Part shown: positions 25,189-41,039 of the stretch, piece after piece
Layout of the letters: every line of letters begins with the position of its first letter
Numbering within the stretch: the stretch's first letter is position 1
Assembly: GCA_964531335.1 (NCBI GenBank)
Contig: CAZHEV010000013.1
Span: 22,732 to 86,731 of the forward strand
Direction of reading: 5' to 3'
Origin: an uncultured bacterium
GTDB lineage: Bacteria; Eisenbacteria; RBG-16-71-46; CAZHEV01
DNA length: 64,000 bases
Made by a program: the position numbers and the translations under genes
The notes under the pieces: generated by a model
The model's database searches: none
What the model was told of the DNA's origin: nothing
Seen by the model: the letters and a program-made list of their open reading frames with translations, nothing else

Positions 25189-25602
25189 ATGGAGGATACA
25201 AGCCGAGAGACCATCAGAGGGAAACAATACGATCTTGTGTTCGCCTGCTCCGGCGCATGCGACGTGGGACTAATCGCCGATGGGGCGGCCCGTTTGCTCA
25301 CGGAAGAGAGGATTGCGTCCATGTGCTGCATCGCTGCAATCGGCGCGGGAGTGCCGGACATCGTGGAAAAGGCACAGGCCGCACGGCGGATGGTCGCCAT
25401 CGACGGGTGCTCAAGCGAGTGCTCGAGGAAGATCCTGGAGAAGGCGGGATTCGAGGGGTTCGCTCACATTCAGCTTGAATCGTTCGGCATGGAGAAAGGC
25501 AAGACGCCGGCAGGCCGCGAAAAGATGCAAAGAGTGAAGGGTCTCGCCGCGTTGGAGCTTGCCCCCGGCGCGGGACGGCCACCGGGGTGCTGCTGCTCCT
25601 GA
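25189..25602 (+). CDS. DGC-domain putative zinc-binding protein
   Basis: ATG 25189 with RBS AGGAG; motifs FACSGACDVG, AIDGCSSECS, C-terminal PPGCCCS. Confidence 0.7.
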   Translation: MEDTSRETIRGKQYDLVFACSGACDVGLIADGAARLLTEERIASMCCIAAIGAGVPDIVEKAQAARRMVAIDGCSSECSRKILEKAGFEGFAHIQLESFGMEKGKTPAGREKMQRVKGLAALELAPGAGRPPGCCCS

Positions 25603-25682
25603 GCGTGAGTTGCGGCATGTGGCCCGACGGCAATCTCTAAGGTGTGGGAGAAGACGAACCGCCGGCGGAGGGACGGAAGGTA

Positions 25683-26945
25683 ATGAAGGACGGCAAGAAC
25701 TGGAAAGCGACTGCCCTGCTGTCAACGATCGTGTTGATTTCGATCACGCTGATCGCCTGGATAACGGGCTACTGGGTGCTGACCGCCCTGCCAATAGGCT
25801 TTCTATTCGGGTTCTTCCTGGAGAAGGCCGATCTCTGCGGCTCATCGGCTTTCAGCGAGGCCTTCATGATGAAGGACTGGAGAAAGCTCCAGGGCATATG
25901 GGTCGTGGCGGTGGCGAGCATGCTGGGCTTCGCGCTCTTGTCGGGGCTGGGCTTGGTGAAGCTCAATCCCAAGCCGCTGCTCTGGGCGAGTTACATCGTC
26001 GGCGGCCTAGTGTTCGGGATCGGCATGGTCCTGGCCGGCGGATGCGTAAGCGGCAGCCTCTACAAGACCGGGCAGGGGAATCTCAATTCCATGGCCGCTC
26101 TCGTTGGAATCCCGCTGGGCGTGGCGGCGGTCGAGTACGGGCCGCTCAACGGCATCCACAAGGCCCTCAGAAGCCTGGTTGTCAATAACAGCGACGGAAG
26201 CTCGGTCACCCTCAGCTCAGTGACGGGGCTGCCCTACTGGTCGCTGGCTCTTATCATCGCCGCAATCACCGTTGGGACGGCCCTCCACTTGAGGCGCACT
26301 TCCAGGAAGAGCAAAGCTATGCCGGATGCCAAACCCGGCGACATGCCTTTCTTGACGAGGGCCATTGCAAGACCTTGGAAGCCCTGGCAGGCGGGAATAC
26401 TGATCGGCATCCTTGCTTCTTTTGCCTACCTGTCCTCGGCGGCCAGCGGAAGAAATTATCCCTTTGGAGTCACGCACGGACCGATGCACGTCAACCTGTT
26501 GATTACCGAAACCTCTTTGACCCATATCTACGCTCCCAAGCCCAGCCCGCCGGTCGCCGCGGCCGCTGAACGGGAGCAGCCAAGCCGGACGCCCGCCGGC
26601 GCGCAAGCAGGAGCGGCAAAGGCCAAGCACGAGGGCTCCAAGAAAGTCTCATGGTGGCTGATCCTTGAAGTTTGCGCCCTGGTTCTGGGCTCCTTTGTGA
26701 GCGCGCGGCTCTCGGGAAGGGCCAGGCTGTCTCCCAAACCCCCGGAGCAGACCGTGGTCGCCTTCTTCGGCGGCCTGATGGTCGGCACCGGAGCCGCCAT
26801 AGCCGGAGGCTGCGTCGTGGGAAATATTATGAGCGGCCTCGCCCTTATGAGCGTGGGCAACGTGATCTTCGCGGTGGTTGTTCTGGTTGCCAATTGGGGC
26901 ACCACGTACTTTTACATGATGGGGCGGCAGCTCCCCGTGAGGTAG
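25683..26945 (+). CDS. YeeE/YedE-family sulfur-compound (thiosulfate-type) transporter
   Basis: Two repeats each carrying the hallmark GGC motif (VLAGGCVSGSLYK and AIAGGCVVGNIMS); polytopic membrane protein. Confidence 0.85.
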   Translation: MKDGKNWKATALLSTIVLISITLIAWITGYWVLTALPIGFLFGFFLEKADLCGSSAFSEAFMMKDWRKLQGIWVVAVASMLGFALLSGLGLVKLNPKPLLWASYIVGGLVFGIGMVLAGGCVSGSLYKTGQGNLNSMAALVGIPLGVAAVEYGPLNGIHKALRSLVVNNSDGSSVTLSSVTGLPYWSLALIIAAITVGTALHLRRTSRKSKAMPDAKPGDMPFLTRAIARPWKPWQAGILIGILASFAYLSSAASGRNYPFGVTHGPMHVNLLITETSLTHIYAPKPSPPVAAAAEREQPSRTPAGAQAGAAKAKHEGSKKVSWWLILEVCALVLGSFVSARLSGRARLSPKPPEQTVVAFFGGLMVGTGAAIAGGCVVGNIMSGLALMSVGNVIFAVVVLVANWGTTYFYMMGRQLPVR

Positions 26946-26951
26946 AGACGA

Positions 26952-28262
26952 GTGAATGGCGAGTGGGTTGTCGTGATCCTCATCGTCCTGAGTCTATTCG
27001 TCGTTCAGCCATCCACCGCGCAAGAGTCAGACGCGGATTCCTCCCATTCGCGCATCGAGCTGCGATCGCATTCCGGACAGGTGAAGGTCCGCTTGGGCGC
27101 GGAATTCAACTTCGACTACCTCGGTTTCGACCGCGGCGAACAAAGCATCCCCGGTGTCGGAGCGCAGGAAAACGACTTCATGGTGAAACGGGGCAGGATA
27201 TACCTGGCCGGGAGCCTGCACCGTCAAATCGACTTCAAGATCAAGGCGGGCCTGGAGCTTGAAGGCACGCCGCTCATCGACGCGTACGCCGCACTCCACT
27301 TGCCCTGGGGGATCGACGTGCGCGCGGGGCAGCTAAAGGTCCCCTTCAGCGAGGAGCGCCTGCGAAGCTTCTCTCGGCAGCCCTTCATGGAGCGCGGACT
27401 GGCCCACGGCCTCGCGCTGCGCAGAAGCCAGGGAGTCTATTTCTCAGGCCGGCCCGGGCGTGGAGGGGTTCGTGTCGACCTCGGCACGGTGACGGGAGAG
27501 AGCCTCCACGAGCACAGTACGGATGATGAGTTCGAGTACGTAGGTAGGGTTGCGCTTGTACTCGATCAGATCTTCGCCGGATTTCCCGGGGCCGGTGCAG
27601 TGCGTGCGGCTGCGGCCCGGGGCGGGCGCCGTCCTGAGAGGGGGCCGACGAATTCTTTCTTCGGAAAAACGATGAACGGGCTGGAGTTCTTCACCCCCGT
27701 GCCTGTAAGCGGCCTGCGCACCCGCTACGAGGCGGACGTCGAGTTTCAAAGGCGGTGGTTGTGGGTCGCCGCGGAGTGGATGGGCGTGGAGGAAGAGCGA
27801 AACGGTGTGGCGGTCCGGCTTGACACCGACGGCGATGGGATTGCGGATGATAGCGTGGTCCGCGATCTCAATCCGCTGCTCGAGCGCGGGTGGATGGCTT
27901 ACGCGGTATTCATGCTCACCGGAGAAGACGCCGACGATTGGGTGGTTCCGAAGCGCAGGAGTGGCGCCCTGAGCCTAGCTCTAAGATACAGCACCGTCGT
28001 TTTTGATTCACAGCAGGACCGGATTCGCGCGGGAACGCCCGGCCTTTCCGGAGTCGAGGTCAGCGACGCGTCAGAGGCACTGGGCCGTCCCAACATCGAC
28101 GAAAGCGTGAACGACCTTTACGTAGGCTTGAACTGGTACGTTGCATCTGGCGTGTTTGTGCAGACCGCGGCCGTGTGGCAGTGGTTCGAGTACTCATCGC
28201 CGTATGGCGGGGGCGACCGCTCAGACGTCAATTACCGGGCGAGGATGGGCGTGGTATTCTAG
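26952..28262 (+). CDS. Outer-membrane porin, OprO/OprP (phosphate-selective porin) like
   Basis: GTG start; signal peptide ...VVQPSTAQE; beta-barrel-like composition; C-terminal aromatic residue (F). Confidence 0.65.
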   Translation: MNGEWVVVILIVLSLFVVQPSTAQESDADSSHSRIELRSHSGQVKVRLGAEFNFDYLGFDRGEQSIPGVGAQENDFMVKRGRIYLAGSLHRQIDFKIKAGLELEGTPLIDAYAALHLPWGIDVRAGQLKVPFSEERLRSFSRQPFMERGLAHGLALRRSQGVYFSGRPGRGGVRVDLGTVTGESLHEHSTDDEFEYVGRVALVLDQIFAGFPGAGAVRAAAARGGRRPERGPTNSFFGKTMNGLEFFTPVPVSGLRTRYEADVEFQRRWLWVAAEWMGVEEERNGVAVRLDTDGDGIADDSVVRDLNPLLERGWMAYAVFMLTGEDADDWVVPKRRSGALSLALRYSTVVFDSQQDRIRAGTPGLSGVEVSDASEALGRPNIDESVNDLYVGLNWYVASGVFVQTAAVWQWFEYSSPYGGGDRSDVNYRARMGVVF

Positions 28263-28446: not shown

Positions 28447-29124
28447 TTACTTCCGGCGATTTTCCGGGCTGTTGGCACGGCATTCAGGCAGGACACCCAA
28501 ACACCCCGCCAGTGCCAGTAGGTATTTGTCTCGGGTGCTCTCATGGATGCTGCTCGTGAACGCGCCGAGCCAGGGGAACAGATAACTGTCTTCAAAGTGA
28601 CATTGACGAAGTATCAGGCGTTCCCCCTCCGCCGTGTCGCCGCCGTCCAGCGTCCCACAGGCCCTTTCCAGCAAATGACCGCTGAACTCCAACTCGACGG
28701 CAAGGTGGTCCGGAAGCTCGCACTGTTGCTCTGAGATGACCAGCCCTTCTTCCTCATACAGACGCTCGACCTGCCGGGTCGTGTCGCCGTAGATGTGCCG
28801 GCCCGGCTCCAGGTAGACTGAACCATAAGGAGGCGACGGGACGGACGCCGGGCCGATGAACTGCCGGGTGTAGGCTACCTGCAGGTCCTCCCGTGATCGG
28901 GATTTCAACTCGGATTGCAAGGCCTCAATTGCGACGGTGTCCGGGACTCCAAGCGATTGAACCGCCCGGCGGAGTCTGGGAACAAGCTCCGCGCTCAGGA
29001 AATCCTCAGGCTCAGGAAGGCAACACAACGCGGATAGAATCAGCCTGATTTCGGCATGCTCGCGCAAGTTCGCGCTCAGCGCCGCCATGTTTCGGGATCG
29101 TTCACAAAAAGGTTCATTGATCAT
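28447..29124 (-). CDS. TorD/DmsD-family redox-enzyme maturation chaperone (ArrD-like)
   Basis: YTRQFIGP...PPYGSVYLE...ELPDHLAVELEF motifs typical of TorD-like chaperones; start could be 29124 or 29088. Confidence 0.75.
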   Translation of the reverse strand: MINEPFCERSRNMAALSANLREHAEIRLILSALCCLPEPEDFLSAELVPRLRRAVQSLGVPDTVAIEALQSELKSRSREDLQVAYTRQFIGPASVPSPPYGSVYLEPGRHIYGDTTRQVERLYEEEGLVISEQQCELPDHLAVELEFSGHLLERACGTLDGGDTAEGERLILRQCHFEDSYLFPWLGAFTSSIHESTRDKYLLALAGCLGVLPECRANSPENRRK

Positions 29125-29151
29125 AGGGACTTACAATCCGGTTCACCACGA

Positions 29152-29916
29152 TCACGCGTTCTTTCGACCGGAGAACTCGCCTACGTAGTAAACATTCGGC
29201 TCCGTGCCCGCGTCTTCCCGCAGCCTGAATGCCTTCTGACGCTTCATAGCCTCCCGGACTTCCGCTTTTGGGTCATCGAGATCACCGAAGATCCTCGCGC
29301 CCGCCGGGCAAGCCTCGACACATCGCGGAGCCTCTCTCAGCTCGACACGATGGGCGCACAGGATACATTTTTCAACGACGTCCGCGCGCCGCACGTTGTC
29401 ATAGTCGGGATGACGGTACAGCGTTCTGTGCGGCGGTGTTTGCCGCGATAAGCCGGCTACCTCCGCACCCGACGAAGTACCGCCGGGGATGACTTCCCTC
29501 TTGCCGGAGTACAGGGCATGAGCCACGCCGTTTTCATTGAAGCTGATCACGCTGTACTGTCTACCCTCGTCATCGACATCAAGAGCGCTGTAGGGACACG
29601 CTTCCTGGCACGACTGGCAGCCGATACAGCGCTCGTCGTTGTGCATGGTTATCCCGTCCGGCGTCTTGAACATTGCCTTTGGCGTGACCGGACACGCCTC
29701 GACACAAGCCGCCCTGCTGCAGTGGTTGCAGAGAACCGGCATGGTCGTGTACTTGACATCGGGAAATGTGCCCTCTTGAGTGATCAGGAAATCAGCCCAA
29801 TTGAATGTCTGCCCGTTCGCACGATCGCCCGTGTTGTTCTCCGTCTTACAGGCGATGGCGCACGCCCCGCAGCCGACGCATTTGTGGAGATCTATAACCA
29901 TTCCGTACTGGGCCAT
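29152..29916 (-). CDS. Molybdoenzyme iron-sulfur subunit with four 4Fe-4S clusters (ArrB/PsrB/DmsB-like)
   Basis: ATG 29916 with RBS GGAGG 9 nt upstream; four Cys clusters (CVGCGACAIAC, CNHCSRAACVEACP, CIGCQSCQEACP, CILCAH...CVEACP). Confidence 0.85.
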   Translation of the reverse strand: MAQYGMVIDLHKCVGCGACAIACKTENNTGDRANGQTFNWADFLITQEGTFPDVKYTTMPVLCNHCSRAACVEACPVTPKAMFKTPDGITMHNDERCIGCQSCQEACPYSALDVDDEGRQYSVISFNENGVAHALYSGKREVIPGGTSSGAEVAGLSRQTPPHRTLYRHPDYDNVRRADVVEKCILCAHRVELREAPRCVEACPAGARIFGDLDDPKAEVREAMKRQKAFRLREDAGTEPNVYYVGEFSGRKNA

Positions 29917-29944
29917 GGCGTCCATCCTCCAATTGAAGCGCGTG

Positions 29945-32470
29945 TCAGATCTTCTCGATCTTTACGCCGGTAAAGCCTCCATTGCGAGCCGTGCTCCCGG
30001 AAAGGCGGTCATAATCGGCCGGCATTATTTCGTTGTTGTTCACTCCCCTGGGGATCTTGCCGAACTCAGCCGAGGCAAAGCGGCCGTAAGCCCAATGCCC
30101 CTGCCCGTAGCACTTGGTCGCCACTCCAGGGGGTATCCCTTCCCAGGGTTTCGCTTTTATCTCAAAACTGCCGGTCACCGAGGATACGAGAACCCTGTCT
30201 CCATGGTTGATTCCCAGCCGAGCCGCATCTTTGGGGTTCATCTTCAGCACGTCGTCCCAGCTCTCATCGCCGGGATCGACCTTCTTCATCTCGTGGTACC
30301 AGGTTGTGTTTTGGCTGCGCCCTTCTCTGTTGAGCCGTGATTTGTGATCCAGGAATACGAACGGGTACTCTTCGACATCGCCCCATCGGAAGGGTGGTTC
30401 GTAGTGCGGAACAAAGGCCTGCTCACCACGCGCCGTGTACTTACAGCTCTCAAGGATGTCATCCACGCTCGTCGCATGCTTGTCGGCGTGGGCCTGGAGA
30501 GCCTTCTTGAGCGTTTCGCTGTAGAACTCGAATCTGTGCGTCTCGGTCTTGAACTTTCCCCAACGCTTCTTGTAAGGATATGGGTCTGAATTCCACATCC
30601 CGCGCTTCCTGAGCTCGTCCCAGCCTGCGATGCCGTCGCCATCGTGACCCGCGGCGTCCATCCAAAGCGGGGACAAGTAATACTTGGTTGAATAGAGCGC
30701 GAACTCCCGCTCGTTTGACGGCGACTTGCCGGTGTCCACGTCTTTGAACTCCTGCTTGAAGTAGTCCAGGAGATTCGGGAATCCCCTCGCCGCCAGACGT
30801 TCGGCGATCAGATACGGTATCTCCGTCTCGTCGATCTTGACGTTCCAGAGGGGATCAACAACGGGCTGAAGCAATGAGGCGTATGCGAAACGGTTTTGTT
30901 TGCCTTTGACCCATCCCCATTTTTCGAAAGTAGTCATTGCACACGGCAAGACGATGTCCGCAAACATCGTCATTTCCGAGGCGTTGGTCGTTAGATGCAC
31001 AAAGAACGGGATCTTCCGCATCGCCCTCTCCCAACGCCGGGCACCGGTACACGAAAAGGGAAAATTGCACATATAACCGATCGCAAGCTTGATATCATAT
31101 GGATCTTCTTCAAGGATCCCGGTTGCGGCATTGTTGGTCACGACACCGCCGCCCGGCTTTCCTTCCTTGAGAGAAGGGAATTCCTTATAGCCGCGCTGGT
31201 CGATCTTCTTGTGCTTCAGCTTTGCGAGGTCGTCCAGGTAAGCGTCGATTTTGGGCATCTTGAGAACCGGGACATGGGCCTTGTCCATCGTACCGCCCTC
31301 GTTGTCAACGGAGCCCAGCAGACCATTCAGCGCGTGAATGGCCATTGCTGCATAGCTTCCGCGGACCTGCATGCAGGAACCCGGGCCGAGCCAGACGGCG
31401 ACATTCGGCGAAGCGTGCCCGAGACCACGCGCGACACGTCTGATCTGATCGGCGGACACTCCGGTGACTCCCTCGGCCCACTTCGCGGACCGGTCCTTCA
31501 ACTCGATGTTCCACCATGCCGCGAGCCCGTGGGTGTGATTCTCCGTAAATAGAACCTCATCTACGGTCTCTCCCGGCTTGAAACGGTTCTTTTCATCGTT
31601 GAAATCGCCGACGAACTCCCGGTTCCAAGCGCCGTTTACAAGAATCTCATGCGCCAGAGCCACTGCCAGCGCCCCATCCTCGCCGGGCTTTACCGGAAGC
31701 CATTCTTGAGCTTTGATGGCTGAGGTGTGAAGTCTCGGATCGACGACCGCCAGTGTTCCGCGGTCAACCACCCCGTGAAGTCTCTTTATGGCAGCAGGCA
31801 CCATTCTGTTCGAAGCGACGGGGTCGCACCCCCAGACAAGAAGGTACGCGCACTTGTCGAGATCGTAGTCGCGGTAGTCCCAGAGTCCCTCCGTAAAATA
31901 AGGGCCGAATTTCTCGGCTTCGGCGCAGATTGCACTGTGTGAGATGTTATTCGGCGATCCGATAATCTTGGTCATCGCTTCGTAGATCACGTCACGCATG
32001 TAAGTGTATCTTCCCCGCAGCAGCAGGTACTTATGCGCCTCACCCGACCGCCGTAGTGAGAGAATCCGCTCCGCTATGGTATCCAGCGCCTCGTCCCAAG
32101 TGATGGCAACGAACCGCGGGTCCTCACCGCGACCCTTATTCGGGTTCGTGCGCTTCAAGGGGGCCTTTACGCGATCAGGGTCATAGACTTGCTGCAGTCC
32201 AATGTGGCCACGAGGGCAGCAGACACCATCGTTCTGCTTCGAGTGCCGGTTTCCCTGTACCTTGACGGCCCGGCCATTCTGAACGAAGACCTCGAGCGGG
32301 CACCAAGTCGTGCACCCCTGGCACGTAGTGGGTATCCACTCACCAGCCGCTTCTTCCACACGAAAACTCTTTTTCACCGAAGCCAGCGCGTTCAGGCGGA
32401 AACCACCCGTCGTCAACAACGCGCCGGCGGCGGCGGCGGACTTGAGGAAGTCACGCCTCCGAATCCGCAT
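29945..32470 (-). CDS. Molybdopterin oxidoreductase catalytic subunit, DMSO-reductase family, Tat-exported (ArrA/ArxA/PsrA-like)
   Basis: ATG 32470 with RBS GGAGG; twin-arginine signal MRIRRRDFLKSAAAAGA; N-terminal Fe-S motif CQGCTTWC...C (C-x2-C-x3-C-x26-C). Substrate not assignable from sequence alone. Confidence 0.85.
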   Translation of the reverse strand: MRIRRRDFLKSAAAAGALLTTGGFRLNALASVKKSFRVEEAAGEWIPTTCQGCTTWCPLEVFVQNGRAVKVQGNRHSKQNDGVCCPRGHIGLQQVYDPDRVKAPLKRTNPNKGRGEDPRFVAITWDEALDTIAERILSLRRSGEAHKYLLLRGRYTYMRDVIYEAMTKIIGSPNNISHSAICAEAEKFGPYFTEGLWDYRDYDLDKCAYLLVWGCDPVASNRMVPAAIKRLHGVVDRGTLAVVDPRLHTSAIKAQEWLPVKPGEDGALAVALAHEILVNGAWNREFVGDFNDEKNRFKPGETVDEVLFTENHTHGLAAWWNIELKDRSAKWAEGVTGVSADQIRRVARGLGHASPNVAVWLGPGSCMQVRGSYAAMAIHALNGLLGSVDNEGGTMDKAHVPVLKMPKIDAYLDDLAKLKHKKIDQRGYKEFPSLKEGKPGGGVVTNNAATGILEEDPYDIKLAIGYMCNFPFSCTGARRWERAMRKIPFFVHLTTNASEMTMFADIVLPCAMTTFEKWGWVKGKQNRFAYASLLQPVVDPLWNVKIDETEIPYLIAERLAARGFPNLLDYFKQEFKDVDTGKSPSNEREFALYSTKYYLSPLWMDAAGHDGDGIAGWDELRKRGMWNSDPYPYKKRWGKFKTETHRFEFYSETLKKALQAHADKHATSVDDILESCKYTARGEQAFVPHYEPPFRWGDVEEYPFVFLDHKSRLNREGRSQNTTWYHEMKKVDPGDESWDDVLKMNPKDAARLGINHGDRVLVSSVTGSFEIKAKPWEGIPPGVATKCYGQGHWAYGRFASAEFGKIPRGVNNNEIMPADYDRLSGSTARNGGFTGVKIEKI

Positions 32471-32513
32471 AGCAACCTCCAAGGGGGCATGTCATTGTGC
32501 TTGGCATCGAAGC

Positions 32514-33023
32514 TCAACGCTCATCGCCGACCTGGCTGTCTCGATGCTCCGACCATCCGCAACATTCCCCGTCTGTCTCACGGCAGTCCGGGCTCCCTGG
32601 TTCAAGCGCCGGGGGCAACGATTCCGGATCTCCCAGGTCGGCAATGGTGATCTCGCGCGCGGCCGAATAGAAAGCGTCTCTGGCTCGGCCCCAGGCGCGA
32701 TCAAACTTGCACGGATTCTGCTCCGTACAGTCACCCAATCCGAGTCGGCATCCAGTCTCTCCATGCAAATGCTCAATGCCTTCTATCACTTCCAGTAGAG
32801 AGATCTTGTGCGGAGGCCGGGCCAGCCCGTAGCCTCCGGTGAAGCCCCGCTTTGAAGTGACAAATCCCAGGTCTCTGAGGGAATGAAGGATCTTGGCCAA
32901 ATACGGGCGTGGCACGTTAGCGCAAGCCGCGAGTTCCTCCCGTTTCCGCAAAGGCCCTATACAGAACGCCAGGCAACGTAGAGCCCTGATGGCATAGACC
33001 GAGGAGTTCGATAGTCCGAACAT
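32514..33023 (-). CDS. Rrf2-family (IscR/NsrR-like) Fe-S transcriptional regulator
   Basis: ATG 33023 with RBS AAAGGAG; MFGLSNSSVYAIRALRCLA N-terminus; three-Cys cluster CRLGLGDCTEQNPC. Confidence 0.8.
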   Translation of the reverse strand: MFGLSNSSVYAIRALRCLAFCIGPLRKREELAACANVPRPYLAKILHSLRDLGFVTSKRGFTGGYGLARPPHKISLLEVIEGIEHLHGETGCRLGLGDCTEQNPCKFDRAWGRARDAFYSAAREITIADLGDPESLPPALEPGSPDCRETDGECCGWSEHRDSQVGDER

Positions 33024-33061
33024 TTTTGACTCCTTTCCGTGTGAACCTAGCATTTATGACC

Positions 33062-33071
33062 TTGATATCAA
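33062..33071. promoter_or_regulatory. Perfect 10-bp palindrome TTGATATCAA in the Rrf2 upstream region
   Basis: Direct reading; AT-rich divergent promoter region. Confidence 0.3.
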
Positions 33072-33401
33072 CTATTTTCTTGATTTACATATCTAAAAAG
33101 CGATGAAAGGCGGCGCCGCCGGTTGCCTGACGAACCGGCCGGCACTTTCTTCCCGGCCTTCCGGCCCGACCGGGGCCGACCCGGCACCCCACTCGCATCG
33201 ACGGGATGCCCCCACCGTCCACCCTGGAACTCTGTGCGAGAAGACCGACGGGCGGGGAACCAGGAGCGCCTGATCTGAGTGCAGGGGGTGGTCCGCTGGG
33301 CCAAACCCAAAGGGCCATCAGTCTGAATCCCACAGTGCTGGTCACACTTCTGGGGTCATTCCGCGCGGGGCGCGGTGCCTCTGCGCGGTGCCTTTTTTCT
33401 C

Positions 33402-33450
33402 TTGACCGGGATGCAGGGCCTCTGCTATAATTCGATATGTGTGCACATAT
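33402..33450 (+). promoter_or_regulatory. Promoter TTGACC-18-TATAAT followed by a perfect inverted repeat ATATGTG-TG-CACATAT (candidate ArsR operator)
   Basis: Direct reading: TTGACC 33402-33407, TATAAT 33426-33431, palindrome 33435-33450, RBS GGAG 33451-33454, ATG 33463. Confidence 0.45.
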
Positions 33451-33462
33451 GGAGACTGACTT

Positions 33463-33909
33463 ATGCGCGATTTCATGACCATAGCGAAGGCACTCTCGGA
33501 TCAGAACCGGATCAGGATGCTCATGGCGCTCTCCGGGGGTGAGCTCTGCGTGTGCCAGATCACGGAGCTCGTGGGCCGGTCTCCTTCTACCGTATCCAAG
33601 CATATGTCCATTCTGAGGCAGGCGGGTCTTGTTGAAGGAAGAAAGGTCGGCCGTTGGGTCTATTACAAACACCCGGATCGCGACGTTCCCGACCTTGTGC
33701 GCGGCACTCTGAAGTGGGTGCGCAGCTCCCTGGCGGAAGATCCGCATATACTCGCGGATGTGAAACGCCTTGAGGAGGTCTTGAAGCTCGATCCCGAGGT
33801 TTTGTGCCGAGGGCAGAGCATGACGTGTCAATCCTCTCCCGGACGATCATCGGCGAAGGCCGGGACCCGAAAGCGCGGGGTAGATCGCGCGCTCAAGCGC
33901 GCGGGATGA
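33463..33909 (+). CDS. arsR: ArsR/SmtB-family metalloregulator with CVC motif
   Basis: LMALSGGELCVCQITELVGRSPSTVSKHMSILRQAGLV; Cys-Val-Cys as in As(III)-responsive ArsR. Confidence 0.8.
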   Translation: MRDFMTIAKALSDQNRIRMLMALSGGELCVCQITELVGRSPSTVSKHMSILRQAGLVEGRKVGRWVYYKHPDRDVPDLVRGTLKWVRSSLAEDPHILADVKRLEEVLKLDPEVLCRGQSMTCQSSPGRSSAKAGTRKRGVDRALKRAG

Positions 33910-34131
33910 TCTGGGCCACCGTGGTATCGGATCGGCCCGGCCACCCGCGGCGGCGGCCCAGCGATGCACACACTGAGCAACGCCACGCAATTGCCGGCAC
34001 CGCGCTGGTGGCCGCGGTTCAGCGGCGGATACCGAACGAAGTTGTGCGGTTGCCGGCGCCGGCATCATCAAGGAGGCATTGCAGGAAACGGCGGCCGACC
34101 TAAACGAACGGGAGCTTGGAGGAGAGGAGCC

Positions 34132-34995
34132 ATGGGAAAGAAACTGTTGTTGGCAGTATCGATTTGCGCTGTAGCCGCGTTCGTCGTGTACGCGGCGGTG
34201 AACATCCGGGGGATGGAACCGGGATCGGCCGGCGCAGCGGCTGATTTGCCACAATCTGCGGGCGTTTCCCGTGAAGGGCCCGCCGCCGCTGCCGGCGAGC
34301 GGCTGGAAGGATCCGGCGACGGCATGGCCGCGCTGAGAGACGCCGCCGAGGAGGATAAGTATGCTTTCGCCTTCTTCTATAAGGACGAGGATGAAGGCAC
34401 GCAGGAGATGAGGGAGTTGTTCGAGACGGCGATGGAGAAGGTCACAGATCGTGCCGAGCACGTGATCCTCAACGCCGCCGACCCTTCGGAGAAGGACATG
34501 ATCGAGAAGTACGGAATTGACCGATCACCCATGCCGTTGGTACTGGCGTTCGCTCCCAACGGTGCACTGACCCGGGGGCTTCCCAGATCCTTCACCGAGG
34601 AGCAGATAATGAGCTGCTTCGTGAGCCCGTGCATGGAAATGTGCCTCAAGGGCGTGCAGGACAGCAGGCTTGTCGCGGTGTGCGTGCAAAACGGCTCAAC
34701 GCGGTTCAACGAGGAGGCGATGGCTGGAGTGCGGGCATTCATGACGGATCCGCGGTTTGCCCGGATGACCGATCTTGTCATGTTGGACCCCAGCGATCCG
34801 GATGAAGCCACGACCTGTAAGAGGTTCAGCGTCGATCCCGACACCGACCAGGCGATAACCCTTCTGCTCGCGCCTCCGGGCAACATCATCGGAAGATTCA
34901 AGGGGGCGACCGACAAGGACGACATGGTCTCCATTCTGACGAGAGCCACGTCCGGCGGATGCGGTCCGGGCAGCGGCTCTGGATGTTGCCCCTAG
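34132..34995 (+). CDS. Hypothetical exported protein with Cys-rich C-terminal tail
   Basis: ATG 34132 with RBS GGAGGAGAGGAG; N-terminal signal/anchor MGKKLLLAVSICAVAAFVVYAAV; C-terminus GGCGPGSGSGCCP; internal CMEMC. Confidence 0.5.
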   Translation: MGKKLLLAVSICAVAAFVVYAAVNIRGMEPGSAGAAADLPQSAGVSREGPAAAAGERLEGSGDGMAALRDAAEEDKYAFAFFYKDEDEGTQEMRELFETAMEKVTDRAEHVILNAADPSEKDMIEKYGIDRSPMPLVLAFAPNGALTRGLPRSFTEEQIMSCFVSPCMEMCLKGVQDSRLVAVCVQNGSTRFNEEAMAGVRAFMTDPRFARMTDLVMLDPSDPDEATTCKRFSVDPDTDQAITLLLAPPGNIIGRFKGATDKDDMVSILTRATSGGCGPGSGSGCCP

Positions 34996-35013
34996 TAGCC
35001 CGGAGGTAACGAA

Positions 35014-36234
35014 GTGAAACTAAGAAAAATCGTCTGGCAGGAGATGTTTCAGCGGAAGTCCCAGCTTGCCACAAGCCTGATCGCCGTGCTTCTCGGCATC
35101 GCCGTGGTCGTCTCCATCAAGAACATCACCTTCTATTCCGAGAAGGCCGTGGCCAGGGAGCTCGACGCCCTGGGCACCAACATTCTCGTCCTGCCCAAGT
35201 CCGCGTCGATACAGGACTACTACAGCGCGGACATGCAGGATGACGAGTTCCCCGAGGAGTACATAACGCGCCTGGCGACCTCCGACCTCCAGGGACTGGA
35301 CAATCTGTCGCCGAAACTGTCCCTGCCGGTGGAGCTCAACGGCGCCGCTTTCACGCTGACGGGGATACTTCCCAAGAATGAGTTCAGCGCAAAGGCCATG
35401 TGGGCGGGCGCGGGCATCTTCTCGCGGCCGGAGGGCTGCGGTCAGATAGCCGGAATGCCGTCGGCCGCGGACCCGCCGGCCAAGGAGACCTTGGTCCGAA
35501 AGAGGGTCATCGACACCCTCGGTGACAATGAAGCCCTCGTGGGCGCCGACGTGGCGGCCCTGTTGGGGGTCGAGGAAGCCGACGAGCTGGCGATTCTGGG
35601 CAGGACATTCTCGGTAACCGCGGTCCTGCCGCAGACCGGCACCGTGGACGATTCCCGTATCTTCGCCCACCTGCACACTGTCCAGAAGCTATCCGGAAAG
35701 GGCCCCGTGGTCAACGCCATCGAGATCGTGGGCTGCTGCAACGAGATATCCGGGGGGCTGGTGCAGAAGATCAACAGGCTTCTTCCCGAAGCGAGAGTCG
35801 TCACGATCACCCAGGTCGTGGACACGCAGATCAAGACGAATCAGATGATGTCCCGGCTATCGATGGTCTTCCTGGCCATCATTGTTGTCGTCGGGGGAGC
35901 GAGCATAGCCAACTACATGTATGCTAACGTGTATGAAAGGCGCCGTGAGATAGGGACACTCATGGCACTGGGCGCGGGGTCCGGGATGATCTTGAAGCTT
36001 TTCCTTTTGAAGGCCCTGGCGATCGGGCTCGCCGGCGGAATCGGCGGTTATGCGCTGGGCACGCTGCTGGCGGTGACCTTGGGGCCGCAGTTCGCGCGCG
36101 TCCCCGTGCTGCCCATGCCGGTTCTTATCGCCTGGGCGCTCGGCATCTCCCTGATTTTGGCCCTCGCGGCGAGCTATCTCCCGGCCAGGCGCGCCGCGCG
36201 CCTTGACCCGTGCGAGACGCTCCAGGAGATGTGA
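35014..36234 (+). CDS. ABC transporter permease, FtsX/MacB-like
   Basis: 406 aa; N-terminal TM, large periplasmic loop, C-terminal TM bundle. Confidence 0.8.
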   Translation: MKLRKIVWQEMFQRKSQLATSLIAVLLGIAVVVSIKNITFYSEKAVARELDALGTNILVLPKSASIQDYYSADMQDDEFPEEYITRLATSDLQGLDNLSPKLSLPVELNGAAFTLTGILPKNEFSAKAMWAGAGIFSRPEGCGQIAGMPSAADPPAKETLVRKRVIDTLGDNEALVGADVAALLGVEEADELAILGRTFSVTAVLPQTGTVDDSRIFAHLHTVQKLSGKGPVVNAIEIVGCCNEISGGLVQKINRLLPEARVVTITQVVDTQIKTNQMMSRLSMVFLAIIVVVGGASIANYMYANVYERRREIGTLMALGAGSGMILKLFLLKALAIGLAGGIGGYALGTLLAVTLGPQFARVPVLPMPVLIAWALGISLILALAASYLPARRAARLDPCETLQEM

Positions 36235-36905
36235 TCTTGATAAAGTTGGAAGGCGTAAGCAAGAGGTACAACCACCGCGGAAGAGCCGTCACGGCGCTTG
36301 ACGAGGCGACTTTCGAGATCTCCAGAGGGGACTTCGTTTCGGTCGTCGGACCCAGCGGAAGCGGCAAGAGCACGTTTCTTCTGATACTGGGCGGCATGCT
36401 TTCCCCGTCGAAAGGGCGGGTTCTATTGGATGGGAGCTCGATTTATGACCTCGCCCAGGACGCACGCGCCAAGCTAAGGAAGACGAGAATCGGCTTCGTG
36501 TTTCAGACCTTCAATCTAGTGCCGTACCTGTCGGCGATGGAAAACGTCCAGATTCCCCTGTTCCTCGCGGGAATGGACGAGCCCGGCCAGAAGGACAGGG
36601 CCGCGGCATTGTTGGGACGAGTGGGCCTCTCGGAGAGGCTTGACCACAAGCCGTCCGAGATGAGCGTTGGCCAGCAGCAGCGCGTGGCTCTCGCAAGGGT
36701 TCTCGCCAACGACCCCGAGGTTGTGCTCGCGGACGAGCCGACGGGCAACCTCGATCCCGAGACCGGGGAGCACGTCCTCGATTTTCTCTGCGAGATCAAC
36801 GCGGAGGGGAAGACGGTCGTCATGGTGACTCATGACCCGCGCGCCGCCGGGAAAGCGAGAACCGGCCTGAGATTGAGCCAAGGCGCGCTGGTGTCCTTGA
36901 GTTAG
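36231..36905 (+). CDS. ABC transporter ATP-binding protein (MacB/LolD-like)
   Basis: GTG 36231 overlapping the upstream stop (GTGA); Walker A GPSGSGKST, signature-like MSVGQQQRVALAR, Walker B VVLADEPT. Confidence 0.85.
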   Translation: MILIKLEGVSKRYNHRGRAVTALDEATFEISRGDFVSVVGPSGSGKSTFLLILGGMLSPSKGRVLLDGSSIYDLAQDARAKLRKTRIGFVFQTFNLVPYLSAMENVQIPLFLAGMDEPGQKDRAAALLGRVGLSERLDHKPSEMSVGQQQRVALARVLANDPEVVLADEPTGNLDPETGEHVLDFLCEINAEGKTVVMVTHDPRAAGKARTGLRLSQGALVSLS

Positions 36906-36926
36906 CGGGTATGTCGCGGAGCGGAT

Positions 36927-38495: not shown

Positions 38496-38936
38496 ATGCC
38501 ACTGAGAATACTGTTTCTGTGCACCGGGAATTCGTGCCGCAGCCAGATGGCCGAAGGTTGGACGCGACATCTCAAAGGCGACGTGGTGGAGCCGTACTCG
38601 GCCGGGATAGAACCTCGCGGAATCGATCCCCGCGCCGTGACGGTAATGGCGGAGGTCGGCGTGGATATTTCGAGGCAGAGCTCCAAGCACGTTGACGAAT
38701 TCAAAGGCACAGCCTTCGATTTCGTCGTGACCGTCTGCGACCATGCGAGCGAACACTGCCCGATCTTTCCTGGCGATACCCAAGTGGTGCACGTGGGTTT
38801 CGAGGATCCTCCCAAGCTGGCGGAAAACGCCGAGACCGAAGAGGAGGCGCTCGGCCACTACAGGCGCGTCAGAGACGAGATACGGGCATTTGTGCAGACG
38901 CTGCCGGCTGCCTTGGAAGGAGACGGGAGACAATGA
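38496..38936 (+). CDS. arsC: Arsenate reductase, thioredoxin-coupled LMW-PTPase type
   Basis: CX5R motif LFLCTGNSCRSQMAEG and downstream Cys pair VCDHASEHCP. Confidence 0.85.
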   Translation: MPLRILFLCTGNSCRSQMAEGWTRHLKGDVVEPYSAGIEPRGIDPRAVTVMAEVGVDISRQSSKHVDEFKGTAFDFVVTVCDHASEHCPIFPGDTQVVHVGFEDPPKLAENAETEEEALGHYRRVRDEIRAFVQTLPAALEGDGRQ

Positions 38937-39838
38937 AAGACACCGATATAGACCGCGGGAGTGACGGGAGCAGGGACGCCGATATAGACCGCGGGAGTGA
39001 CGGGAGTGAGCGGAAGGACGCGCGCGGCATCGTGCGCGAAGAATACGGCAAGATCGCCCGGCAGGGCGGCTCCTGCTGCGGGCCGTCACCTTGCTGTGGA
39101 GGCGCTTCCGCTGATTCGGTCGCCGCGAAAGTGGGCTACAGCCAAGAAGAGCTCGCCGGGCTGCCGCATGGAGCTAACATGGGGCTCTCCTGCGGGAACC
39201 CGGTCGCGATCGCGTCGCTGCGGCCGGGGGAAGTCGTGCTCGACCTGGGCGCGGGGGGCGGCTTCGACGTGTTCCTTGCAGCCCGCAAGGTGGGCCCTTC
39301 GGGACGCGCCATCGGCGTGGACATGACGCCGGACATGGTGGACAAGGCCCGCCGCAACGCGGAGTCCTTCAGAAGTGCGACGGGGCTCGACAACGTCGAG
39401 TTCCGTCTGGGCGAAATAGAGCACCTGCCCGTGGCGGACGCGTGCATAGACGTGGTAATCTCCAACTGCGTCATCAACCTCTCGCCGGACAAGCCTCAGG
39501 TGTGGGCGGAGATCGCGCGCGTCCTCAAGCCCGGTGGACGGGTATCCGTCTCCGACCTGGCGCTCCTGCGGCCGCTGCCGGACGCGGTGCGTGAGTCGGC
39601 GCAGGCCTTGGTCGGCTGCATGGCGGGGGCCGTGCCGGTGGATGAGACGCGCGAGATGACGCGGGAGGCCGGACTTACAGAGGCCGTCTTTGAAACCAAT
39701 TCCGACTACGTGGATCAGATGGCCGAGTGGTCCGACGCAACCTACCGCGAGATCGCCGCGGGGCTGCCGCCGGGGGCCCGGCCGAGCGACTTCGTGACCA
39801 GCATGAACGTCACGGCGTCCAAGCCCGTTACGGAATAG
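38933..39838 (+). CDS. arsM: Arsenite S-adenosylmethionine methyltransferase
   Basis: ATG overlaps arsC stop (ATGA); SAM-MTase motif [16 protein letters not shown], conserved Cys ([19 protein letters not shown]). Confidence 0.85.
38943..39006. repeat. 36-bp tandem direct repeat x2 at the 5-prime end of arsM (28/28 identical core ccgatatagaccgcgggagtgacgggag)
   Basis: Direct reading; encodes [11 protein letters not shown] twice. Confidence 0.9.
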
Positions 39839-39848
39839 GAGTGCGACG

Positions 39849-41039
39849 ATGGCGACTGAAGCGTGCATCAAGAAGGAGGCCAAGGGCCTCAGCGCGTTTG
39901 AGAGATACCTGACGGCCTGGGTGGCGCTCTGCATCGTGGCGGGGATCGCGCTCGGCAAGGTAGCGCCGGGCGTGGCTACTTTTCTGGACGGGTTGGCGAT
40001 CTACGTCGACGAGGCCCCGGTCGTCTCCATTCCCATCGCCGTCTGCCTGTTCTTCATGATGTACCCCATCATGGTGAAGATCGACTTCGCGGAGGTCCTA
40101 AAGGCCGGCAAGAACGCGAAGCCCGTGGGCCTTACGCTCTTCGTAAACTGGGCGATCAAGCCCTTCACCATGTACGCCATCTCGGTCTTGTTCCTCGGCG
40201 TGCTGTTCCGGGGGCTGATAGGTGCGGACGCCGTGGATCTGGTAAAAATGCCGCTCGGCCTCGACCTGCCCGTGGGGGCGGAGCACGGGGTGGGCAAGGT
40301 CGTGATCGCAGACGGGGTCAGGATGCTCGAGGTGCCGCTGTGGCGCAGCTACCTCGCCGGCTGCATCCTGCTCGGCATCGCGCCCTGCACGGCGATGGTG
40401 CTCGTCTGGGGGTTCCTGGCCAAGGGGAACGACGGCCATACCCTCGTCATGGTGGCGATCAACTCGCTGACAATGCTGTTTCTCTACGGCCCGCTTGGAG
40501 GTTTTCTGCTCGGCGTCGGAAGGCTGCCCGTGCCGTGGCAGGCGCTCCTTCTTTCCATCGGCGTCTATGTCGCGCTGCCGCTCGTGGCCGGATATGCGTC
40601 CAGGAGACTCATCGTTCGCGCCAGGGGAGAGGAGTGGTTCAAGGAGAGATTCCTGCACGTGATGACGCCGGTCACCATCACGGCGCTCCTTGTGACCCTG
40701 GTCTTGCTCTTCTCCTTCAAGGGCGAGACGATCATGTCCAACCCTTTGACGATCCTGTGGATCGCCATCCCGCTTTTCATCCAGACCAACCTGATATTCT
40801 GGATCACCTACGGACTGGCCAGGGGGCTGCGTCTTGAGTACCGTGACGCCGCGCCTTCGGCGATGATCGGAGCCTCGAATCACTTCGAGGTCGCCATCGC
40901 GACGGCGACCATGCTCTTCGGGCTTTCCTCGGGGGCGGCGCTTGCAACCGTGGTCGGGGTGCTCATCGAGGTGCCCGTGATGCTGATGCTGGTCCGGATC
41001 TGCCTTCGCACCAGCGGATGGTTCCGTGCGCCCTCGTGA
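39849..41039 (+). CDS. acr3: Arsenite efflux permease, ACR3 family
   Basis: RBS TAGGAG; polytopic membrane protein; N-terminal [23 protein letters not shown] typical of Acr3. Confidence 0.85.

What the first reader, a model, noticed from the sequence alone, without database searches (positions are those of the whole stretch)
28447..33909. Rrf2-headed periplasmic molybdoenzyme operon (A-B-TorD, no membrane anchor) divergent from a CVC-motif ArsR: candidate respiratory arsenate reductase or relative
The Tat-exported catalytic subunit (C-x2-C-x3-C-x26-C), a four-cluster Fe-S subunit and a TorD-like chaperone, with no NrfD-type membrane subunit, match the ArrA-ArrB-ArrD layout better than PsrABC, PhsABC or TtrABC. 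The operon is led by an Fe-S Rrf2-type regulator rather than a known arsenate-respiration regulator, and a CVC-type arsR with a perfect palindromic operator is divergently placed. The substrate (arsenate, arsenite, selenate, polysulfide) cannot be decided from the sequence.
Basis: partly seen in the sequence, partly recalled or inferred. Interest (0 to 1): 0.6.

Follow-up and report, generated by a model that had tools for sequence, protein, structure and literature searches.

The report
Arsenate-respiration operon headed by Rrf2 regulator
This is a genuine respiratory arsenate reductase operon (arrA-arrB-arrD) inside an arsenic-resistance island of an uncultured bacterium; the enzyme is ordinary for its family, and the only unusual feature is that an iron-sulfur Rrf2-type regulator, not the usual two-component system, is the first gene of the operon.

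Summary
On the minus strand, 33023 to 28447, four genes run head to tail: an Rrf2 regulator, an 841-aa Tat-exported molybdoenzyme, a four-cluster Fe-S subunit and a TorD-type chaperone. A CVC-type arsR is transcribed divergently.

- It is about 50% identical over its full length to the crystallised Shewanella ANA-3 ArrA, against 31% to two ArxA and 25% to PhsA.
- It carries the ArrA-type RGRY and HSxxCAEAxK motifs, where ArxA has YGRGW and CSDGS.
- It sits deep inside an ArrA clade separated from ArxA in 100/100 bootstraps.

There is no NrfD anchor and no c-type cytochrome anywhere in the 64 kb. That is a known arr layout (arrAB without arrC).

The Rrf2 head is rare. It was seen in 1 of 80 species-representative arr loci, and in four lineages in all (the window included), all within one ArrA subclade. 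The usual upstream gene is a sigma-54 response regulator. Related Rrf2 proteins head Ttr-like molybdoenzyme and multihaem-cytochrome operons.

Verdict: a new member of a known enzyme family with an undescribed but modest regulatory variant. Moderate-low interest.

The parts
32514..33023 (-). Rrf2-family transcription regulator (169 aa), first gene of the operon, with an NsrR-like three-Cys Fe-S site
   Evidence: PF02082 95 bits and TIGR00738 90.9 bits, both above their cut-offs. The closest solved structures are RsrR (6Y45/6HSD) and NsrR (5N07), and the three Cys align to the NsrR cluster region. These three Cys are invariant in 17 relatives. The gene is 43 nt upstream of arrA on the same strand.
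29945..32470 (-). ArrA, the Tat-exported Mo-bisPGD catalytic subunit of respiratory arsenate reductase (841 aa)
   Evidence: NF041714 ArrA 1121 bits over the whole model, with the next family (PhsA) at 235 bits. PDB 6CZ7 ArrA scores 970 bits over residues 45-845. Identity is 49.6% to Shewanella ArrA, 31% to ArxA and 25% to PhsA, and the RGRY and HSAICAEAEK motifs are present. The ArrA clade is recovered in 100/100 bootstraps.
29152..29925 (-). ArrB, the four-[4Fe-4S] electron-transfer subunit (257 aa, no signal peptide)
   Evidence: The best NCBIfam hit is NF041715 ArrB at 236 bits, below its 450-bit cut-off. Four Cys groups are visible in the translation. An arrB gene follows arrA in essentially all 80 related loci at 42-72% identity.
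28447..29124 (-). ArrD, a TorD/DmsD/NarJ-family Tat-proofreading chaperone (225 aa)
   Evidence: PF02613 92 bits; DmsD and TorD NCBIfam hits fall below their cut-offs. The gene is conserved after arrB in about 75 of 80 loci.
33024..33100 (-). AT-rich promoter/operator candidate for the Rrf2-arr operon, with the TTGATATCAA palindrome at 33062-33071
   Evidence: Read directly from the sequence. Similar TGATA/TATCA palindromes lie upstream of the Rrf2 genes of L002 and L082. This is inferred, not shown: the consensus scan found no sigma-70 match on this strand.
33463..33909 (+). ArsR/SmtB repressor with an ELCVCQ As(III) site (148 aa), first gene of the divergent ars cluster
   Evidence: NF033788 91 bits (cut-off 55) and PF01022. 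The CVC motif is read from the translation.
33402..33450 (+). arsR promoter (TTGACC-18-TATAAT) and ArsR operator ATATGTGTGCACATAT (33435-33450)
   Evidence: The operator is unique in the window.
26952..28262 (+). Phosphate-selective-type outer-membrane porin, convergent with arrD; a possible arsenate entry route (inferred)
   Evidence: PF07396 Porin_O_P 52 bits. Porins also flank arr in L086, L176 (both Porin_O_P) and L082 (Porin_5).
38496..41039 (+). Context genes: arsC (thioredoxin type), arsM and acr3 of the same arsenic island
   Evidence: TIGR02691 scores 142 bits, below its cut-off. NF008823 ArsM scores 317 bits and TIGR00832 Acr3 scores 381 bits, both above their cut-offs.

Best explanation
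The locus encodes a periplasmic respiratory arsenate reductase of the anchor-less arrAB(D) type.

Proposed mechanism:
- ArrD holds the ArrA precursor in the cytoplasm until the Mo-bisPGD cofactor and the N-terminal [4Fe-4S] cluster are inserted.
- ArrA then carries the signal-less ArrB through the Tat pathway.
- In the periplasm, electrons pass along the four ArrB clusters to the ArrA molybdenum site, which reduces arsenate to arsenite.
- Arsenate probably enters through the neighbouring phosphate-type porin.
- The resulting arsenite is handled by the adjacent arsR-arsC-arsM-acr3 genes.
- Because there is no ArrC anchor, quinol oxidation must be done by a partner encoded outside the 64 kb. This would be a CymA/NrfH-type cytochrome or an NrfCD-type module.

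Proposed regulation: transcription starts at an AT-rich promoter upstream of the Rrf2 gene. The Rrf2 protein, with an NsrR-like three-Cys Fe-S site, most likely autoregulates the operon. It would tie expression to the redox, O2, NO or Fe-S status of the cell. The separately transcribed CVC-type ArsR derepresses the ars cluster when arsenite appears.

Shown here: the gene identities, the family placement, the active-site conservation, the operon continuity and the rarity of the Rrf2 head.

Inferred only: the direction of catalysis in vivo, the electron donor, the role of the porin, the signal sensed by Rrf2, and whether Rrf2 represses or activates.
For: ArrA identity:
- NCBIfam ArrA is by far the best model, matched end to end at 1121 bits against 235 for PhsA.
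- The crystallised Shewanella ANA-3 ArrA matches at 970 bits over residues 45-845, against 137 bits for the next structure, Thermus polysulfide/thiosulfate reductase.
- Identity is 49.6% to ArrA, 31% to two ArxA taken from canonical arxXSR-arxB'ABCD plasmid loci, and 25% to PhsA.
- The RGRY and H-S-x-x-C-A-E-A-x-K...Y motifs are as in Shewanella ArrA, while both ArxA have YGRGW and CSDGS.
- A neighbour-joining tree of 87 sequences separates ArrA from ArxA in 100/100 bootstraps. The window is nested above the Deferribacteres branch and the Shewanella/Firmicutes branch.

Operon:
- arrA-arrB-arrD is conserved in nearly all 80 species genomes.
- The Rrf2 stop lies 43 nt before arrA here, and overlaps arrA by 4 nt in L002 and L082.

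Anchor-less layout: no NrfD homologue and no CxxCH protein occur in the window. arrAB without arrC, served by CymA in Shewanella, is described in PMC2500031.

Rrf2:
- Family cut-offs are met.
- The Cys triad aligns with NsrR and is invariant in relatives.
- Rrf2-headed arr operons recur in four lineages of one ArrA subclade: window/L001, L002/L138, L082/83 and L176.
- Relatives at 38% identity or more sit beside Ttr-like molybdoenzyme or multihaem-cytochrome operons in 9 of 18 loci with enough flank, against 2 of 27 for more distant ones.

Arsenic context: arsC, arsM and acr3 lie on the arsR side.
Against: - The ArrA and ArrB scores are below NCBIfam's strict equivalog cut-offs (1121 < 1600 and 236 < 450). 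NCBI's own pipeline calls this protein and its relatives only 'molybdopterin-dependent oxidoreductase'.
- No member of the window's ArrA subclade comes from a cultured arsenate respirer.
- No quinol-oxidising partner is visible.
- The soluble poly-ferredoxin gene that follows arrD in more than 50 related loci is absent here.
- For the regulatory part there is no direct evidence at all.
- The two closest Rrf2 orthologues (L002, L082) have lost the Fe-S Cys triad, so cluster-based sensing cannot be a general property of arr-linked Rrf2 proteins.
- No common operator was found across the Rrf2 subfamily.
- The consensus scan found no sigma-70-like promoter on the Rrf2 side.
Confidence: 0.8

Rival explanations
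1. The enzyme is an Arx-type anaerobic arsenite oxidase, or an ArrAB running physiologically in reverse, feeding electrons from arsenite into the chain.
For: ArrA and ArxA are sister clades of one lineage (PMC7331816). From memory, Shewanella ArrAB is reversible in vitro. No electron-transfer partner is present that would fix the direction.
Against: Identity to two ArxA is only 31%. The ArxA motifs YGRGW and CSDGS are absent. ArxA is separated in 100/100 bootstraps. None of the arx hallmarks seen in L088 and L089 is present: arxB', the arxC NrfD anchor and the arxXSR regulators.
Confidence: 0.04
2. The enzyme reduces another chalcogen or oxyanion substrate (polysulfide, thiosulfate, tetrathionate, selenite), and the arsenic context is coincidental.
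For: Substrate prediction in this superfamily is often unreliable (a view quoted in PMC3534657). The neighbouring genes include a YeeE/TsuA-like sulfur transporter and thioredoxins. The NCBIfam ArrA cut-off is not met.
Against: PhsA scores 235 bits against a cut-off of 694, and TtrA scores 69 bits. Thermus Psr/Phs scores 137 bits against 970 for ArrA. The protein is nested inside ArrA. No PsrC/TtrC anchor is present. The residues around the Mo-ligand Cys match those of the crystallised ArrA.
Confidence: 0.04
3. The arsenic-responsive control of arr is exerted by the neighbouring ArsR, as ArsR2 does in Shewanella ANA-3. On this reading the Rrf2 protein is only a secondary anaerobiosis or Fe-S-status input, or a passenger.
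For: A CVC-type ArsR is the nearest arsenite sensor. From memory (Murphy and Saltikov 2009), arr in Shewanella is controlled by an ArsR. A GATATGT half-site like that of the ArsR operator lies in the Rrf2 upstream region, and CGATATG-like words occur upstream of the L082 Rrf2.
Against: The full ArsR operator occurs only once in the window, 412 bp from the Rrf2 start and overlapping arsR's own promoter. The half-site matches are too short to be significant. An arsR neighbour is not conserved next to arr in L082, L084, L086 or L176.
Confidence: 0.25
4. The Rrf2 protein itself senses arsenite through cysteine thiols. Candidates are the NsrR-like triad or the N-terminal C17/C21/C34 set shared by all arr-linked orthologues. 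This would make it the arsenic switch of the operon.
For: C17, C21 and C34 are invariant in the window, L002 and L082 Rrf2 proteins, even where the Fe-S triad is lost. Three-Cys sites are how ArsR proteins bind As(III) (established knowledge). The window protein also has a Cys-rich disordered tail, DCRETDGECCGW.
Against: C17 and C34 are conserved across the whole subfamily, including members beside Ttr-like and cytochrome operons with no arsenic link. L176 lacks C21. The tail is not conserved. The spatial proximity of the Cys residues could not be measured with the tools available.
Confidence: 0.1

Closest known systems
Shewanella sp. ANA-3 ArrAB (PDB 6CZ7-6CZA), the model respiratory arsenate reductase
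   Same: ArrA aligns over its full length at about 50% identity. Both have a Tat signal, the CX2CX3CX27C cluster motif, RGRY, HSxxCAEAxK and the following Tyr. ArrB carries four clusters. Neither has an ArrC anchor. An arsenic-resistance operon lies next door in both (PMC2500031).
   Different: Shewanella has arrAB only; here a TorD-type arrD follows. From memory, Shewanella arr is controlled by cAMP-CRP and ArsR2, whereas here an Rrf2 gene is the first cistron. The CymA-like donor is not visible here.
arrXSR/arrRS-controlled arrAB(C)D operons of Desulfobulbaceae, Nitrospirota, Deferribacteres and Firmicutes
   Same: They share the same arrA-arrB-arrD core at 59-68% ArrA identity.
   Different: The gene just upstream of arrA in those loci is a sigma-54 response regulator (28 loci), an NrfD/ArrC anchor (7 loci) or a multihaem cytochrome (6 loci). 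Most also carry a soluble poly-ferredoxin gene after arrD. The window has none of these.
Rrf2-arrABD operons of three uncultured relatives (L002/L138, L082/L083, L176)
   Same: The architecture is the same, with 73-76% ArrA identity. Rrf2 sits directly before arrA, or before a small CMD gene in L176. A porin often lies nearby.
   Different: The L002 and L082 Rrf2 proteins lack the Fe-S Cys triad. All three relatives keep the poly-ferredoxin gene after arrD. L082 is linked to molybdenum-cofactor biosynthesis genes rather than to an ars island.
NsrR / RsrR / IscR (characterised Fe-S Rrf2 regulators)
   Same: The protein has the winged-helix Rrf2 fold (model pLDDT 79). Its three Cys lie in the position of the NsrR cluster ligands. 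From memory (Giel et al. 2006), IscR and NsrR regulate anaerobic respiratory Fe-S enzymes such as hya, hyb, nap and nrf in E. coli, which is a precedent.
   Different: Sequence similarity is only about 25-35%, and all equivalog cut-offs are missed. The spacing is Cx6Cx5C, and Asp108 stands where most of its Rrf2 relatives have a His (the CPxH consensus; from memory IscR's His107 ligand is at the equivalent spot). There are extra N-terminal Cys and a 30-residue disordered Cys-rich tail. The gene is embedded in an arr operon.
Arx anaerobic arsenite oxidase (arxB'ABCD + arxXSR), e.g. Sulfuricella pSCD and Cereibacter pORIO3
   Same: It is the sister clade of the same molybdoenzyme lineage, with the same A-B-TorD modules.
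   Different: Identity is 31%. ArxA has the YGRGW/CSDGS motifs, an extra arxB', an arxC anchor and a three-component regulator, all absent here.

Membership tests
ArrA (respiratory arsenate reductase catalytic subunit) | Twin-arginine signal and an N-terminal CX2CX3CX27C [4Fe-4S] motif | tested here: met
   RRRDFLK and C50/C53/C57/C85 are present. PF04879 scores 47.8 bits. PF10518 scores 19.6 bits, just below its gathering score.
ArrA (respiratory arsenate reductase catalytic subunit) | Active-site signature around the Mo-ligand Cys: (R/K)GRY, H-S-x-x-C, Lys and Tyr as in Shewanella ArrA (residue roles recalled from Glasser et al. 2018, which is not held in the library) | tested here: met
   LRGRYT and HSAICAEAEK...Y are identical in register to 6CZ7. 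The two ArxA show YGRGW and HSSMCSDGS.
ArrA (respiratory arsenate reductase catalytic subunit) | Placement inside the ArrA clade, apart from ArxA and Psr/Phs | tested here: met
   A neighbour-joining tree of 87 sequences gives 100/100 bootstraps for ArrA against ArxA plus PhsA, with the window nested three nodes inside ArrA. This is a distance method with few characterised references.
ArrA (respiratory arsenate reductase catalytic subunit) | NCBIfam NF041714 equivalog trusted cut-off (1600 bits) | tested here: not met
   The score is 1121 bits over positions 2-848 of 848. It is the best family by a wide margin but below the cut-off.
ArrA (respiratory arsenate reductase catalytic subunit) | Adjacent arrB encoding a four-cluster ferredoxin | tested here: met
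   arrB starts 20 nt after arrA. ArrB is its best family at 236 bits, below the 450-bit cut-off. Four Cys groups are present.
ArrA (respiratory arsenate reductase catalytic subunit) | Arsenate reductase activity, or arsenate-dependent anaerobic growth of the host | not testable with these tools
   The organism is uncultured; the exact protein occurs only in one NCBI MAG contig and one Logan contig.
ArxA (anaerobic arsenite oxidase) | XGRGWG-type motif and the arxB'/arxC/arxXSR gene context | tested here: not met
   The motif is absent. There is no NrfD gene, no second Fe-S gene upstream and no PhnD-type binding protein, kinase or sigma-54 regulator next to the operon.
PsrABC / PhsABC / TtrABC | Catalytic subunit in the Psr/Phs or Ttr clade, plus an obligatory NrfD-type C subunit | tested here: not met
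   PhsA scores 235 bits against a cut-off of 694, and TtrA scores 69 bits against 1750. No NrfD homologue occurs in the window.
Rrf2 family, Fe-S-binding type | Rrf2 wHTH domain above family cut-offs and three Cys in the cluster-ligand region | tested here: met
   PF02082 scores 95 bits (cut-off 30) and TIGR00738 scores 90.9 bits (cut-off 73.3). C92/C99/C105 align with the NsrR ligand region and are invariant in 17 relatives. Cluster binding itself was not tested.
IscR / NsrR / RirA / CymR / SufR-type equivalogs | Score above the equivalog cut-off | tested here: not met
   All are far below their cut-offs, for example suf_reg 54.8 bits against 110.65, RirA 50 against 193, IscR 40 against 207 and NsrR 35.6 against 182.
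ArsR/SmtB arsenite-responsive repressor (R773 type) | ArsR HTH domain, a CVC motif at the start of the recognition region, and an inverted-repeat operator at its own promoter | tested here: met
   NF033788 scores 91 bits (cut-off 55). ELCVCQ is present. The ATATGTG-TG-CACATAT repeat lies immediately after the -10 element. As(III) binding was not tested, and the third Cys of R773 ArsR (Cys37, from memory) is absent.

The most novel reading that the evidence does not exclude
The Rrf2 protein could belong to an uncharacterised Cys-rich Rrf2 subfamily dedicated to switching on periplasmic respiratory modules (Arr, Ttr-like molybdoenzymes, multihaem cytochromes). The arr-linked members would then be the arsenic or redox sensors of arsenate respiration. 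Sensing would use the NsrR-like Fe-S triad, as in the window and L176, or the N-terminal Cys set kept by all arr-linked members (C17 and C34; C21 only in the window, L002 and L082). This would be a third, unrecognised way of regulating arr, alongside ArrXSR and ArsR/CRP. It could also be the first thiol- or arsenite-responsive Rrf2.
Probability: 0.12. Interest if true: 0.65.

Novelty: new variant of a known kind. Interest (0 to 1): 0.33.

Why it matters
Respiratory arsenate reduction mobilises arsenic into groundwater, and arrA is the standard marker gene for it. This locus adds a confidently assignable ArrA from an uncultured, probably FCB-group bacterium. NCBI's pipeline does not name it, and relatives in the search output that carry a name are called only 'molybdopterin-dependent oxidoreductase', 'dehydrogenase' or (by JGI) 'anaerobic selenocysteine-containing dehydrogenase'.

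The regulatory side is the only new element. If Rrf2 really gates arr, expression of arsenate respiration in this lineage would depend on a redox or Fe-S signal rather than on the periplasmic arsenic-sensing ArrXSR system. That would affect how arrA transcript data from sediments are read. Beyond that, the biology is as expected for the family.

Tried and rejected
- An exact look-up with the TTG-start 845-aa product found nothing. The ATG-start 841-aa product was found.
- The structural paper on ArrAB (Glasser et al. 2018) is not held, so the residue roles rest on memory plus the alignment to 6CZ7.
- Literature searches for Rrf2 with arrA, arsenate or arsenite gave nothing on arr regulation. 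A search for 'arrE' gave no name for the poly-ferredoxin gene.
- Rfam found nothing in the window. The 300-bp GC-rich spacer between the two promoters does not fold better than shuffles (z = -0.84).
- A search for a second ArsR operator near the arr promoter found none.
- A palindrome and k-mer search in 29 upstream regions found no operator common to the Rrf2 subfamily. It gave only lineage-specific repeats: GTGGAC/GTCCAC in some lineages and TGATA/TATCA in the arr-linked ones.
- The AlphaFold model of Rrf2 is adequate (pLDDT 79).
- A Psr/Phs/Ttr identity and an Arx identity were considered and rejected on scores, motifs, tree and gene context.
- The 248-aa ORF at 33085-33831 (-), which overlaps the spacer and arsR, was treated as spurious: it has low third-position GC (0.60) and no gene is called there in L001.


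Full report
**What is there**

The region holds four co-directional genes on the minus strand and a divergent arsR.
- Rrf2: 32514-33023, from an ATG preceded by GGAAAGGAG.
- ArrA-like molybdoenzyme: 29945-32470, from an ATG preceded by GGAGG.
- Fe-S subunit: 29152-29925.
- TorD-like chaperone: 28447-29124.

The gaps between these genes are 43, 19 and 27 nt. The 841-aa product and its neighbours are on record, identical, in one Logan contig and one NCBI MAG contig of 90 kb. Gene calls there match mine, except that arrB is called three codons shorter (254 aa). The protein is 841 aa, not 842. The fourth cluster ligand is C85, the invariant one of two adjacent Cys, giving the canonical x27 spacing rather than x26.

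**Identity of the enzyme**

NCBIfam's ArrA model matches end to end at 1121 bits, and the next family, PhsA, scores 235. Against the PDB, the Shewanella ANA-3 ArrA structure scores 970 bits over residues 45-845. The next structure, Thermus polysulfide/thiosulfate reductase, scores 137.

To separate Arr from Arx I needed ArxA sequences. A tblastn of plasmids returned two loci with the textbook arx layout: a PhnD-type binding protein, a kinase, a sigma-54 regulator, and then arxB'-A-B-C(NrfD)-D. They come from Cereibacter azotoformans pORIO3 and Sulfuricella denitrificans pSCD.

In one MAFFT alignment the window protein is 49.6% identical to Shewanella ArrA, 31% to both ArxA and 25% to a Proteus PhsA-like protein (unannotated in the record; called PhsA from its similarity). 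It shares LRGRY and HSxxCAEAxK...Y with Shewanella ArrA, whereas both ArxA read YGRGW and HSSMCSDGS. That these residues line the arsenate site, and that (R/K)GRY versus XGRGWG distinguishes Arr from Arx, I recall from Glasser et al. 2018. That paper is not in the library.

A neighbour-joining tree of 87 sequences (Kimura distances, 844 columns) recovers ArrA against ArxA plus PhsA in 100/100 bootstraps. On the path from the root, the window lies above the Deferribacter/Denitrovibrio branch and above the Shewanella plus Firmicutes branch. It is therefore nested within ArrA, not basal to it.

The strict NCBIfam equivalog cut-offs are not reached, either for ArrA (1600 bits) or for ArrB (450 bits). 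This explains why public annotation calls these proteins only 'molybdopterin-dependent oxidoreductase'. I read this as a narrow seed alignment for the model, not as evidence against membership, but I record it as a test not met.

**Missing anchor**

No NrfD, PsrC, ArrC, ArxC or TtrC homologue exists anywhere in the 64 kb, and no frame carries two CxxCH motifs. The genes flanking the operon are a porin on one side and arsR on the other.

Anchor-less arrAB operons are a known type. Duval et al. 2008 describe arrAB and arrCAB clusters and CymA as the quinol oxidase in Shewanella (PMC2500031). The electron donor must therefore be encoded elsewhere in this genome.

**Comparative context**

A scan of one genome per species returned 80 arr loci at 59-76% ArrA identity. 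arrB and arrD follow arrA in almost all of them.

The gene just upstream of arrA is most often one of three kinds:
- a sigma-54 response regulator, in 28 loci; this is the ArrXSR-type system whose sensor family is described in PMC5908839;
- an NrfD anchor, in 7 Firmicutes loci;
- a multihaem cytochrome, in 6 loci.

An Rrf2 gene upstream of arrA was found in only one of the 80 (L002). Targeted look-ups of the closest ArrA relatives added L082/L083 and L176. A metagenome scan with the Rrf2 proteins added only L138, which is the L002 type. Close relatives L084, L086 and L177 lack it.

Rrf2-headed arr operons are thus a recurrent but narrow feature of one ArrA subclade at 70-76% identity. In L002 and L082 the Rrf2 stop overlaps the arrA start by 4 nt, which argues for co-transcription.

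**The Rrf2 protein**

It passes the Pfam and TIGRFAM family cut-offs and fails every named equivalog: IscR, NsrR, RirA, CymR and SufR-type. The closest solved structures are RsrR and NsrR, and its three Cys (Cx6Cx5C) align with the NsrR ligand region. These Cys are invariant in 17 database relatives. The AlphaFold model has the Rrf2 fold (pLDDT 79) and a disordered Cys-containing tail.

The nearest relatives, at 38-43% identity, form a recognisable subfamily with additional N-terminal Cys: C17, C34 and usually a third. They lie beside respiratory modules:
- multihaem cytochrome clusters;
- Ttr-like B-C-A or A-B-TorD molybdoenzyme operons, where Rrf2 is again the first gene (L101, L112).

Nine of 18 such loci with enough flank show this context, against 2 of 27 more distant ones.

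Among the arr-linked members, the window and L176 keep the Fe-S triad, while L002 and L082 have lost it and keep only the N-terminal Cys.

My reading is that this subfamily regulates anaerobic respiratory operons and that the window's copy senses redox, O2, NO or Fe-S status through a cluster. The signal, the sign of regulation and the operator are all inferred. The only operator candidate is an AT-rich island containing TTGATATCAA (33062-33071), with TGATA/TATCA-type palindromes also upstream of the L002 and L082 genes.

**ArsR**

The divergent gene is a standard CVC-type ArsR. Its near-consensus promoter is followed directly by an inverted repeat, the classic autorepression layout. It heads a cluster that runs on to arsC, arsM and acr3. 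The operator is 412 bp from the Rrf2 start and has no second copy, so I found no evidence that ArsR controls arr. Short half-site resemblances exist but are not significant.

**Verdict**

The Rrf2 head is real and rare. I found no description of it in the searchable literature. It is nevertheless a regulatory variant with precedent in how IscR and NsrR govern other anaerobic Fe-S enzymes (from memory). Interest is moderate-low.

Noticed in passing
L082:12009-12917, L084:11995-12879, L086:12153-12992, L176:7548-8276 and more than 50 other arr loci; absent from the window: A soluble 240-300-aa poly-[4Fe-4S] ferredoxin gene follows arrD in most arr operons. It gives only generic Fer4 or NapF-like family hits, and I found no name for it in the literature. 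The window's operon lacks it. It could be a cytoplasmic maturation or electron-transfer factor for Arr.
   Followed up: partly
window 26952-28262 (+) and 44554-45906 (-); L086:4092-5543; L176:8326-9594; L082:12994-14043: Phosphate-selective-type porins (Porin_O_P; Porin_5 in L082) lie next to arr operons in four of the seven closest loci. These may be anion porins that let arsenate, a phosphate analogue, reach the periplasmic reductase.
   Followed up: partly
L101:6001-11975 and L112:947-6325 (metagenome contigs): Rrf2 genes about 40% identical to the window's are the first genes of Ttr-like molybdoenzyme operons. These are Rrf2-TtrB-NrfD-TtrA in L101 and Rrf2-?-TtrA-B-TorD in L112. The TtrA-like subunits score far below the TtrA cut-off, so their substrate is unknown.
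   Followed up: partly
window 32514-33023; L002:125-613; L082:7516-8004; loci L096-L129: This Rrf2 subfamily carries conserved N-terminal cysteines (C17 in helix 1, C34 at the end of helix 2, and usually a third at positions 21-24) in addition to the Fe-S triad. Two arr-linked orthologues have lost the triad but keep these Cys. Their role is unknown.
   Followed up: partly
window 33100-33400: A 300-bp GC-rich spacer with no convincing gene separates the two promoters. A terminator-like hairpin with a T-run lies at 33361-33398 (+), immediately before the arsR -35 element. There is no Rfam match and no unusual folding energy.
   Followed up: yes
window 22020-28262 (+): A second ArsR-headed cluster lies on the other side of arr. 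It comprises ArsR, an unknown gene, thioredoxins, DsbD_TM, a DGC-domain protein, a YeeE/TsuA-like transporter and the porin. It looks like a thiol/disulfide and sulfur-transport module linked to arsenic, perhaps for thioarsenate handling. It was not analysed further.
   Followed up: no
window 33964-38126 (+): Between arsR and arsC lie a 287-343-aa thioredoxin-like protein with no family above cut-off, a MacB/FtsX-type ABC exporter pair and two DUF1573 proteins. This is an unusual insert for an ars operon, and its function is unknown.
   Followed up: no
window 16435-21542 (-): Proteins here carry T9SS C-terminal sorting domains (Por_Secre_tail, FlgD_ig), which suggests that the host belongs to the FCB superphylum. 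L084, a close ArrA relative, carries the same kind of protein.
   Followed up: no
window 46129-46812 (-): An ArsR-HTH protein fused to a rhodanese domain sits next to an RND efflux system at 46964-52971. A further small ArsR-like gene lies at 53989-54327, so the window holds four ArsR-type regulators in all.
   Followed up: no
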